From a virus (taxonomy: Duplodnaviria; Heunggongvirae; Uroviricota; Caudoviricetes): a stretch of DNA of 34,243 bases. Under the pieces are notes generated by a model that was not told the origin of the DNA, did no database searches, and saw nothing but the letters and a program-made list of their open reading frames with translations. Shown here in pieces: positions 24,421 to 25,460 of this stretch (positions are counted from its first letter, which is position 1; each line of letters starts with the position of its first letter). The stretch lies in the IMG/VR virus record IMGVR_UViG_2859810971_000006, positions 1 to 34,243 of that record; one strand, given 5' to 3'. Position numbers and translations under genes: made by a program.

Positions 24421-25460
24421 TGAAAGAACATATCGCGCCAGGCGAAACCGTAACTGCAGAAGAAACTAAAAAACCCGTTGCGGAGGCTTTCAGCTTTGGT
24501 GATCCCATTCCTGTACTGGACCGCCGCGAACTGCTGGACTATGTGGAATGCGTACAGATGGATCGCTGGTATGAGCCGCCCGTCAGCTTTGACGGACTGG
24601 CGCGCACCTTCCGCGCCGCCGTGCACCACAGCTCCCCGATCAGTGTTAAGCGTGACATTATCAGCAGTACCTATATTCCACATCGCCTTCTCAGCCAGCA
24701 GGCATTTACCCGTTTTGTGCAGGACTATCTGGTTTTTGGTAACGCCTACCTGGAGAAACGCACGAACCGCTTTGGTGAAGTTATTTCGCTGGAGCCTGCA
24801 CTGGCAAAATACACCCGACGCGGGCTTGACCTTGAAACATACTGGTTTGTGTAATACAGCCTGACGACACAGCCGTATCAGTTCACAAAAGGTAACGTCT
24901 TCCACCTGATGGAGCCGGATATCAACCAGGAGATTTATGGTCTGCCGGGTTACCTTTCTGCCATTCCGTCAGCTCTGCTCAACGAATCCGCCACGCTGTT
25001 CCGCCGCAAGTATTACATTAACGGCAGCCACGCAGGCTTCATCATGTACATGACCGACGCCGCACAGAACCAGGAGGATGTGAACAACATCCGCAAGGCA
25101 ATGAAAAGCGCTAAAGGACCGGGCAACTTCCGCAACCTGTTTATGTACTCGCCTAACGGCAAAAAAGATGGCATTCAGATTATCCCGTTGTCGGAAGTCG
25201 CGGCGAAGGATGAATTTCTGAACATCAAGAACGTCAGCCGCGATGACATGATGGCGGCTCACCGCGTACCGCCGCAAATGATGGGCATCATTCCCAACAA
25301 CACTGGCGGCTTTGGGGATGTGGAAAAAGCGAGCCGTGTCTTCGTCCGCAATGAACTGATGCCCCTGCAAAAGCGACTGCAGGAGCTGAATGACTGGCTG
25401 GATGAAGAGGTTATCCGTTTTGAAGCCTATGACTTAGGACTTAAGGGCAAACGAAGCTGA
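24420..25460 (+). pseudogene. Q: Portal protein gene Q interrupted by an in-frame TAA
   Basis: The 145-aa ORF (24417-24854) and the 183-aa ORF (24909-25460) are in the same frame, separated only by TAA at 24852-24854; combined length about 346 codons matches P2 Q. The ATG at 24420 overlaps the P stop. Confidence 0.7.

What the first reader, a model, noticed from the sequence alone, without database searches (positions are those of the whole stretch)
24852..24854. In-frame TAA stop splits the portal gene Q
The two portal ORFs are in the same frame and separated only by TAA at 24852-24854 (...ETYWFV * YSLTTQPYQF...). A truncated portal cannot assemble proheads, so the prophage should be unable to produce particles unless the stop is suppressed. 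It is a single-codon lesion, so it could also be a sequencing error.
Basis: seen in the sequence. Interest (0 to 1): 0.55.

Follow-up and report, generated by a model that had tools for sequence, protein, structure and literature searches.

The report
Nonsense mutation in decaying prophage portal gene
A single C-to-T change has put a real, inherited stop codon into the portal (head-connector) gene of a P2/186-like prophage that is also broken by two IS1 insertions, so this is ordinary prophage decay in a Shigella-type genome and not a sequencing error or a special coding device.

Summary
TAA at 24852-24854 is codon 145 of a 346-codon portal gene (24420-25460, + strand), just downstream of the large terminase gene. 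All closely related E. coli prophages checked have CAA (Gln) there. The nearest one differs from the window in the whole portal gene only at base 24852 (C to T).

It is not a sequencing error. The window is identical to CP026810.1. The same TAA is in a second complete genome (CP049606.1, probably Shigella boydii 600080), two NCBI draft assemblies and two independent SRA assemblies. The exact 144-aa product is on record on 44 contigs. None of 5,426 complete E. coli genomes has this allele.

The stop removes 58% of the protein and most of the Phage_portal domain. I found nothing that would rescue it: UAAU context, no tRNA gene in the window, no usable restart.

The prophage is dead for other reasons too. 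Two IS1 copies cut its early lytic operon, one in cII and one in dam with an adjacent deletion.

Five further 1-bp deletions seen only in this assembly all lie in homopolymers. They are probably assembly errors.

Verdict: a real, lineage-fixed pseudogene. Ordinary, low interest.

The parts
24420..25460 (+). Portal gene (P2 gene Q homologue), now a pseudogene: 346 codons including the internal stop
   Evidence: collinear with the annotated 'phage portal protein' WP_000658059.1, 99.7% identity with one stop in the alignment. Pfam PF04860 matches residues 93-334 of the repaired protein. 60-61% identical to P2 gpQ and the 186 portal.
24852..24854 (+). Ochre stop TAA at codon 145, derived from CAA (Gln) by a C-to-T change at base 24852; the next base is T (TAAT)
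   Evidence: Relatives L001-L006 have CAA. L007, L009, L013-L016 have TAA.
24420..24854 (+). Only product expected to be translated: a 144-aa N-terminal portal fragment
   Evidence: This exact product is on 44 contigs. No Pfam family reaches threshold.
24909..25460 (+). Remnant C-terminal ORF (183 aa from the first ATG after the stop); probably not expressed on its own
   Evidence: PF04860, profile positions 142-286. No promoter-like site in 24300-25900. The only AGG-type motif lies about 17 nt before the ATG (read).
22654..24420 (+). Large terminase (ATPase) gene, P2 gene P homologue, intact; its stop overlaps the portal start (ATGA)
   Evidence: PF06056, PF03237, PF17289.
25623..25641 (-). 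cos-like 19-mer GGCGTGGCGGGGATACGAG, 15/19 identical to the 186 cohesive end, about 165 nt past the portal stop
   Evidence: compared with the cos features of P2 and 186.
29263..30030 (-). IS1 copy A (768 bp) inside the dam methylase gene of the early operon. It has no target-site duplication, and about 1.2 kb (dam 5' part, TraR-like gene, DUF2732 gene, most of the DUF5347 gene) is missing next to it.
   Evidence: (PF03400 DDE_Tnp_IS1).
31032..31799 (-). IS1 copy B (768 bp), flanked by an 8-bp duplication GGTAATCA. It is inserted in the first codons of cII, between the apl/pR side and the rest of the early lytic operon.
3305..34243 (.). Extent of the 186-like P2-family prophage within the window (ogr-like gene to integrase), inserted between host ybjL and rcdA. 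The attachment sites were not mapped.

Best explanation
The TAA is a genuine, vertically inherited nonsense mutation (CAA Gln145 to TAA; C to T at 24852) in the portal gene of a 186-like, P2-family prophage. The prophage sits between ybjL and rcdA in a Shigella-type (probably S. boydii) lineage. Translation of the P-Q transcript should stop at codon 145. That would give a 144-aa fragment lacking 58% of the protein and most of the Phage_portal domain, the part that builds the DNA channel and the docking sites for terminase and tail. No dodecameric portal could then form, so capsids could neither be filled with DNA nor joined to tails. The mutation is one of several independent hits on a prophage already cut off from lytic growth by two IS1 insertions in its early operon. 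In other words it is neutral decay of a cryptic prophage.

Shown here: the ancestral codon, the recurrence of the allele in independent assemblies, and the IS1 lesions. Inferred: loss of portal function, polarity of the IS1 insertions, and neutrality.
For: - Codon and frame.
- Ancestral CAA: the nearest relative L001 differs in the 1047-nt query (the portal gene plus 3 nt on each side) only at base 24852.
- Source: the window is 100% identical to CP026810.1 (locus L008; L013 is from the same record).
- Same TAA elsewhere: Logan assemblies of SRR34947940 and SRR32548201, CP049606.1, GCA_013885435.1 and GCA_016688575.1. These differ from the window by a few SNPs and a 6-bp indel in the tail-fibre gene, so they are different strains.
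- Exact 144-aa product on 44 contigs, listed in 52 blocks of the collection.
- No complete E. coli genome out of 5,426 matches the 63 nt around the stop perfectly. The best match is 98.4%, which is one mismatch.
- The repaired protein matches PF04860 over residues 93-334. The 144-aa fragment matches nothing. There is homology to the HK97 portal 8cez over residues 84-327.
- gpQ forms the dodecameric portal at one capsid vertex and is essential for packaging (PMC7552001). [quoted passage not shown]
- Other lesions: IS1 at 29263-30030 and 31032-31799.
- Shigella genomes are known for IS expansion and pseudogenisation by point mutation (PMC8072062).
Against: - No read data, transcript, protein or induction experiment is available, so loss of function is inferred from sequence.
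- All other late genes are intact in the lineage relatives. This shows the lesion is recent, and it leaves formally open that the late region is still under some selection.
- I could not search the rest of the host genome for an ochre suppressor tRNA.
- The species name is inferred from neighbouring accession numbers (CP049607.1 is a plasmid of S. boydii 600080). It was not read from the record.
Confidence: 0.9

Rival explanations
1. Sequencing or assembly error: the true sequence has CAA and the portal gene is intact.
For: This assembly does seem to carry errors. Five 1-bp deletions are private to it, at 1084, 11965, 12761, 13014 and 21702. All lie in 4-5 nt homopolymers, and one is in the conserved host gene ybjM. 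The lineage relatives do not have them.
Against: The stop is a substitution outside any homopolymer. It is present in five other independently produced assemblies, and the truncated product is on 44 contigs.
Confidence: 0.02
2. The stop is read through or suppressed (ochre suppressor tRNA or programmed readthrough), so that a full-length portal is still made.
For: The downstream 201 codons are still open and unmutated. The rest of the late region is intact in relatives.
Against: - The stop is not conserved. All close homologues have a sense codon, which is the opposite of what a programmed recoding site shows.
- There is no tRNA gene in the window.
- The context is UAAU, which from established knowledge of E. 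coli termination (not tested here) is among the most efficient stop signals.
- A portal needs 12 full-length copies per capsid.
- The intact downstream sequence is explained by the youth of the mutation: there is no other difference from L001.
Confidence: 0.02
3. Selected loss of head function: the element is kept as a head-less, tail-only device (tailocin-like) or for its cargo (CI immunity, acyltransferase, DinI-like gene), and the portal knock-out is adaptive rather than neutral.
For: - Tail, baseplate, lysis and ogr genes are full length in the lineage.
- An acyltransferase moron and the CI repressor are intact.
- Portal breaks recur in other P2-like prophages: C-terminal portal fragments on 388 contigs (one named source is a Salmonella Dublin protein) and on 105 contigs (E. 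coli names), and an IS26 in the portal gene of hit H42.
Against: - All other head genes (O, N, M, L, P) are also still intact, so nothing marks the tail genes as specially preserved.
- The early operon that would drive replication and late gene expression is cut by IS1.
- The early region is eroding differently in different strains.
- Divergence within the lineage is too low for a dN/dS test.
Confidence: 0.04

Closest known systems
Portal protein gpQ of phage P2 (NP_046757.1) and the portal of phage 186 (NP_052249.1, 'P2 Q homolog')
   Same: Same gene position: downstream of the large terminase gene, convergent with the replication gene A across cos, and divergent from the O-N-M-L capsid operon. 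Protein identity is 60-61%, and both match Pfam Phage_portal.
   Different: Here the reading frame is cut at codon 145 by TAA. The residue at that position is not conserved (Gln in close relatives, Pro in P2, Glu in 186).
Intact portal gene WP_000658059.1 of E. coli prophages at the same ybjL-rcdA site (e.g. NZ_CM129867.1, NZ_AP027886.1, NZ_CP016546.1)
   Same: Same integration site and gene order. The late region is 99.7% identical, and the portal DNA is identical apart from one base.
   Different: These have CAA instead of TAA and no IS1 in the early region. Their cargo between cos and the DinI-like gene differs, and in L005 the CI immunity type differs too.
Laboratory nonsense (amber) mutants in essential head genes of P2 (my own knowledge of the classical P2 genetics; not checked here)
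   Same: A single nonsense codon in an essential head gene that abolishes production of DNA-filled heads unless the host carries a suppressor.
   Different: This one arose naturally, is an ochre codon, is fixed in a bacterial lineage, and sits in a prophage that is also disabled by IS1.
IS- and point-mutation-driven pseudogenisation in Shigella genomes (PMC8072062, and Hawkey et al. 2020 as cited there)
   Same: IS1 insertions combined with point-mutation pseudogenes in one locus, with different strains showing different IS-adjacent deletions.
   Different: Nothing of note. This looks like one more instance.

Membership tests
Phage portal protein (Pfam PF04860), P2 gpQ type | Sequence match to the family profile above the curated threshold | tested here: met
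   Repaired protein: 69.5 bits against a cut-off of 39.1, residues 93-334. C-terminal remnant: 45.1 bits. The 144-aa N-terminal product alone has no match.
Phage portal protein (Pfam PF04860), P2 gpQ type | P2-family synteny: immediately downstream of the large terminase gene P, next to cos, divergent from the O-N-M-L operon | tested here: met
Phage portal protein (Pfam PF04860), P2 gpQ type | Uninterrupted reading frame able to encode the full-length subunit | tested here: not met
   TAA at codon 145 of 346. The locus is therefore a portal pseudogene, not a functional family member.
186-like (P2-family, Peduoviridae) prophage | CI repressor, Apl-like gene, CII, Fil, replication gene A, DinI-like (Tum-type) gene, ogr-type late activator, and P2-type head, tail and lysis modules | tested here: met
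   (PF07022, PF06892, PF10893, PF05840, PF06183, PF00589). Searches give the gene-by-gene match to annotated relatives.
Fixed nonsense-mutation pseudogene | In-frame stop at a position where close homologues carry a sense codon | tested here: met
   (CAA in L001-L006). (no perfect match to the TAA allele in 5,426 complete E. coli genomes).
Fixed nonsense-mutation pseudogene | Allele reproducible in independent sequencing of the lineage | tested here: met
   two complete genomes, two draft genomes and two SRA assemblies checked directly, plus 44 contigs that carry the exact product.
Fixed nonsense-mutation pseudogene | Loss of the gene's function in vivo | not testable with these tools
   This needs induction, electron microscopy, plaque assays or proteomics.
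Programmed stop-codon readthrough / recoding site | The stop codon and its context are conserved among homologues | tested here: not met
   only this lineage has the stop. Relatives have Gln, Pro or Glu.
Programmed stop-codon readthrough / recoding site | A cognate suppressor tRNA or stimulatory element is present | tested here: inconclusive
   No tRNA gene in the window. The rest of the genome could not be searched.
Tailocin (domesticated head-less contractile tail cluster) | Head, packaging and replication genes absent, while tail and lysis genes are kept | tested here: not met
   capsid, scaffold, both terminase subunits, head completion and replication gene A are all still present.
IS1 insertion sequence | 768-bp element with ~23-bp terminal inverted repeats, IS1-type transposase ORFs, and a short target duplication on simple insertion | tested here: met
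   768 bp, 23-nt inverted repeats, 8-bp duplication at copy B, none at copy A. PF03400; thousands of copies in E. coli genomes.

The most novel reading that the evidence does not exclude
The portal knock-out is not neutral. In this reading, breaking the portal gene is a recurrent, selected route by which enterobacterial hosts disarm P2-like prophages while keeping their tail and lysis genes or cargo in use, for example as a tailocin or for O-antigen acylation and immunity. Hints in this direction are the portal fragments found on many contigs in other lineages (a 133-aa fragment on 388 contigs, one named source a Salmonella Dublin protein; a 131-aa fragment on 105 contigs with E. coli names; an IS26 in one E. 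coli portal gene).
Probability: 0.04. Interest if true: 0.5.

Novelty: already known. Interest (0 to 1): 0.08.

Why it matters
It matters little beyond annotation.

- **Annotation:** the locus should be labelled as a portal pseudogene inside a defective, IS1-disrupted 186-like prophage. Prophage-prediction tools that score this 31-kb region as 'intact' would be wrong.
- **Lineage marker:** the allele marks a Shigella-type lineage.
- **Assembly quality:** comparison with relatives flags probable homopolymer errors in this assembly (ybjM, the tail-fibre gene H, gpO). These should not be read as biology.

Tried and rejected
- **Sequencing error:** rejected, because the allele is found in independent assemblies.
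- **Suppression, recoding or restart:** no tRNA gene in the window and no promoter-like site around the remnant ORF. There is no well-spaced ribosome-binding site before ATG 24909 (read). The stop is not conserved.
- **Naming the organism of CP026810.1:** two literature searches found nothing. Neighbouring accessions belong to other strains. Only CP049606.1 could be tied, by its neighbour accession, to S. boydii 600080.
- **Exact-pattern scan of species-representative genomes for the TAA allele:** no match. This is expected if Shigella is folded into E. coli in that collection.
- **Terminator after the portal gene:** the simple scan reported no site in the T-rich stretch right after the stop, so no terminator is claimed.
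- **Structure prediction to map the truncation onto portal domains:** not run. The repaired protein is not a window sequence, and the Pfam and HK97 alignments already show that most of the domain is lost.
- **Tail-fibre gene H and gpO frameshifts as further real lesions:** considered, but the relatives that carry the TAA have both genes intact, so these are not counted as lineage lesions.

Full report
**1. The observation**

Bases 24852-24854 are TAA. They lie in the frame that opens at ATG 24420 and closes at the stop at 25458-25460. That ATG overlaps the stop of the upstream gene as ATGA. The translation reads ...LDLETYWFV*YSLTTQPYQF.... The stop is codon 145 of 346. The mechanical ORF list shows the two halves as 24417-24854 (145 aa from a TTG start) and 24909-25460 (183 aa from the first ATG after the stop).

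**2. What the gene is**

With the stop replaced by Gln, the protein matches Pfam Phage_portal (PF04860) at 69.5 bits over residues 93-334. The 144-aa N-terminal product alone matches no family. By sequence it is related to the solved HK97 portal (8cez/8fql) over residues 84-327. It is 60% identical to P2 gpQ and 61% identical to the 186 portal.

It follows the 588-aa large terminase gene (22654-24420). About 165 nt further on lies a cos-like 19-mer (25623-25641, minus orientation, 15/19 identical to 186 cos). It converges on the replication gene A, as in an integrated P2 or 186 genome.

The element is a 186-like member of the P2 family. It has a CI repressor, an Apl-like gene, CII, Fil, gene A, a DinI-like gene, an ogr-like gene and a full P2-type head, tail and lysis set. 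It is inserted between the host genes ybjL and rcdA.

**3. The ancestral codon**

The portal region matches 1,272 records of complete E. coli genomes; 19 of them are at least 99% identical. In every relative I fetched (L001-L006) the codon is CAA (Gln). The nearest, NZ_CM129867.1, differs from the window in the 1047-nt query (the portal gene plus 3 nt on each side) only at base 24852, C against T. The lesion is therefore a single C-to-T transition making an ochre codon. The residue itself is not conserved: Pro in P2, Glu in 186.

**4. Real mutation or error?**

The window is 100% identical to CP026810.1 (assembly GCA_002949455.1).

- The exact 144-aa truncated product is on record on 44 contigs and is listed in 52 blocks of the collection.
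- I read the codon directly in five other assemblies, and all have TAA. These are Logan assemblies of SRR34947940 and SRR32548201, the complete genome CP049606.1, and the drafts GCA_013885435.1 and GCA_016688575.1.
- They are not copies of the same strain. They differ from the window by about six SNPs in 16.6 kb, by a 6-bp indel in the tail-fibre gene, and in their IS1 junctions.
- None of 5,426 complete E. coli genomes matches the 63 nt around the stop perfectly. The best match is 98.4%, which is one mismatch.

The allele is therefore a real mutation, inherited within one lineage.

The accession next to CP049606.1 is a plasmid of Shigella boydii strain 600080. The accessions around CP026810.1 belong to Shigella dysenteriae and S. 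flexneri strains. From this I infer, but could not read from a record, that the lineage is a Shigella, probably S. boydii.

**5. Assembly quality**

Against two E. coli relatives, the window has five private 1-bp deletions in the first 25.7 kb:

| Position | Location |
|---|---|
| 1084 | host gene ybjM |
| 11965 | intergenic |
| 12761 and 13014 | tail-fibre gene H, split into 417-aa and 168-aa ORFs |
| 21702 | end of the scaffold gene O |

All five sit in runs of four or five identical bases. None is present in the lineage relatives that share the TAA, where H (566 aa) and O (277 aa) are intact. The C-run near 25543 is also shorter than in the short-read assemblies. These are most likely long-read consensus errors, or at most private to this strain. 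The portal stop differs in kind: it is a substitution outside any homopolymer.

**6. Consequence for the portal**

In P2, gpQ forms the dodecameric portal at one capsid vertex, and incorporation of portals is essential for DNA packaging (PMC7552001). [quoted passage not shown] The clip docks the terminase and later the tail adaptors (PMC10359639).

A product ending at residue 144 keeps only the start of the Phage_portal match, which spans residues 93-334 of the repaired protein. It cannot form such a ring; this is inference.

I found nothing that would rescue it:

- There is no tRNA gene in the window.
- The stop is followed by T, and UAAU is a strong terminator in E. coli (my own knowledge, not tested here).
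- No promoter-like site lies in 24300-25900.
- The first downstream ATG (24909) has no well-spaced ribosome-binding motif (read). A product starting there would in any case lack 163 residues.

The defect would be in packaging and tail joining rather than in shell assembly.

**7. The prophage is disabled in other ways too**

Two IS1 copies, 768 bp each with 23-nt terminal inverted repeats and differing at one base, lie on the minus strand at 29263-30030 and 31032-31799 (PF03400).

- Copy B is flanked by an 8-bp duplication (GGTAATCA). It sits in the first codons of cII, between the apl/promoter side and the rest of the early lytic operon.
- Copy A has no duplication. Next to it about 1.2 kb is missing compared with intact relatives: the 5' part of dam, the TraR-like and DUF2732 genes, and most of the DUF5347 gene.

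Transcription from the early promoter would have to cross both elements to reach the replication gene A. I infer that lytic replication, and with it late gene expression, is blocked whatever the state of the portal.

The relatives show other IS1-adjacent outcomes. In CP049606.1, 347 more bases of dam are retained, a larger deletion reaches 33063, and 79 bp are missing from the integrase gene. The early region is therefore still eroding in the lineage. This fits what is described for Shigella genomes: IS expansion plus pseudogenisation by point mutation (PMC8072062).

**8. Explanation and rivals**

- **Best explanation (confidence about 0.9):** a real, lineage-fixed ochre mutation that inactivates the portal gene of an already crippled 186-like prophage. 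This is neutral decay.
- **Sequencing error (about 0.02):** excluded by the independent assemblies.
- **Suppression or programmed readthrough (about 0.02):** no support, because the stop is not conserved.
- **Adaptive 'head-less' domestication (about 0.04):** not excluded. It has only weak hints: intact tail and lysis genes, intact cargo, and recurring portal breaks in other lineages. Against it, all other head genes are equally intact.

**9. Novelty and verdict**

Nonsense pseudogenes in cryptic prophages are commonplace. No protein is on record for the portal region in the PGAP-type records CP049606.1, GCA_013885435.1 and GCA_016688575.1, which is consistent with a pseudogene call there. The finding is correct as an observation and largely correct as an interpretation, and it is ordinary. 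Interest is low.

Noticed in passing
window 29263-30030 and 31032-31799 (minus strand): Two nearly identical IS1 copies (768 bp, 1 difference) cut the prophage early operon. Copy B has an 8-bp target duplication GGTAATCA inside the start of cII. Copy A has none, and about 1.2 kb (dam 5' part to the DUF5347 gene) is missing beside it.
   Followed up: yes
window 1084, 11965, 12761, 13014, 21702, and the C-run near 25543: Single-base deletions private to this assembly, all in homopolymers. They break host ybjM, split tail-fibre gene H into 417-aa and 168-aa ORFs, and shorten scaffold gene O to 273 aa. Lineage relatives have the extra base and intact genes, so these are probably long-read consensus errors.
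   Followed up: partly
window 10680-11864 (minus strand): A 394-aa acyltransferase_3 family gene sits as cargo between the tail sheath gene and the tail-fibre assembly gene. It is 100% identical to the gene in the E. coli relatives. It is a possible surface-polysaccharide-modifying moron that could favour keeping the prophage.
   Followed up: no
window 25767-25836, compared with L005 26811-27583 and L006: There is a variable cargo spot between cos and the DinI-like gene. The window has almost nothing there. Relatives carry a 336-bp hypothetical ORF, two hypothetical ORFs, or an HNH endonuclease.
   Followed up: no
window 31883-32795: The Apl-like gene and a 189-aa CI repressor are intact. This CI is only about 52% identical to the CI of the otherwise nearest relative L005, and its DNA matches L006 at about 92%. 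The immunity region is therefore mosaic relative to the late region.
   Followed up: partly
L014 (CP049606.1) 16610-18830, compared with window 29262-34243: A sister strain has a single IS1 with a different junction in dam (347 bp more retained), a deletion reaching window position 33063, and a 79-bp deletion in the integrase gene. IS1-mediated erosion of the early region is continuing within the lineage.
   Followed up: partly
Protein cluster 2 (P0018, P0019) and hit H42: C-terminal portal fragments of 131-133 aa are on record on many contigs in other lineages: 388 contigs (one named source is Salmonella Dublin) and 105 contigs (E. coli names). One E. coli genome has IS26 inside this portal gene. 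Broken portal genes recur among P2-like prophages.
   Followed up: no
window 25623-25641 (minus orientation): A cos-like 19-mer GGCGTGGCGGGGATACGAG, 15/19 identical to the 186 cohesive end, at the expected distance downstream of the portal gene.
   Followed up: yes
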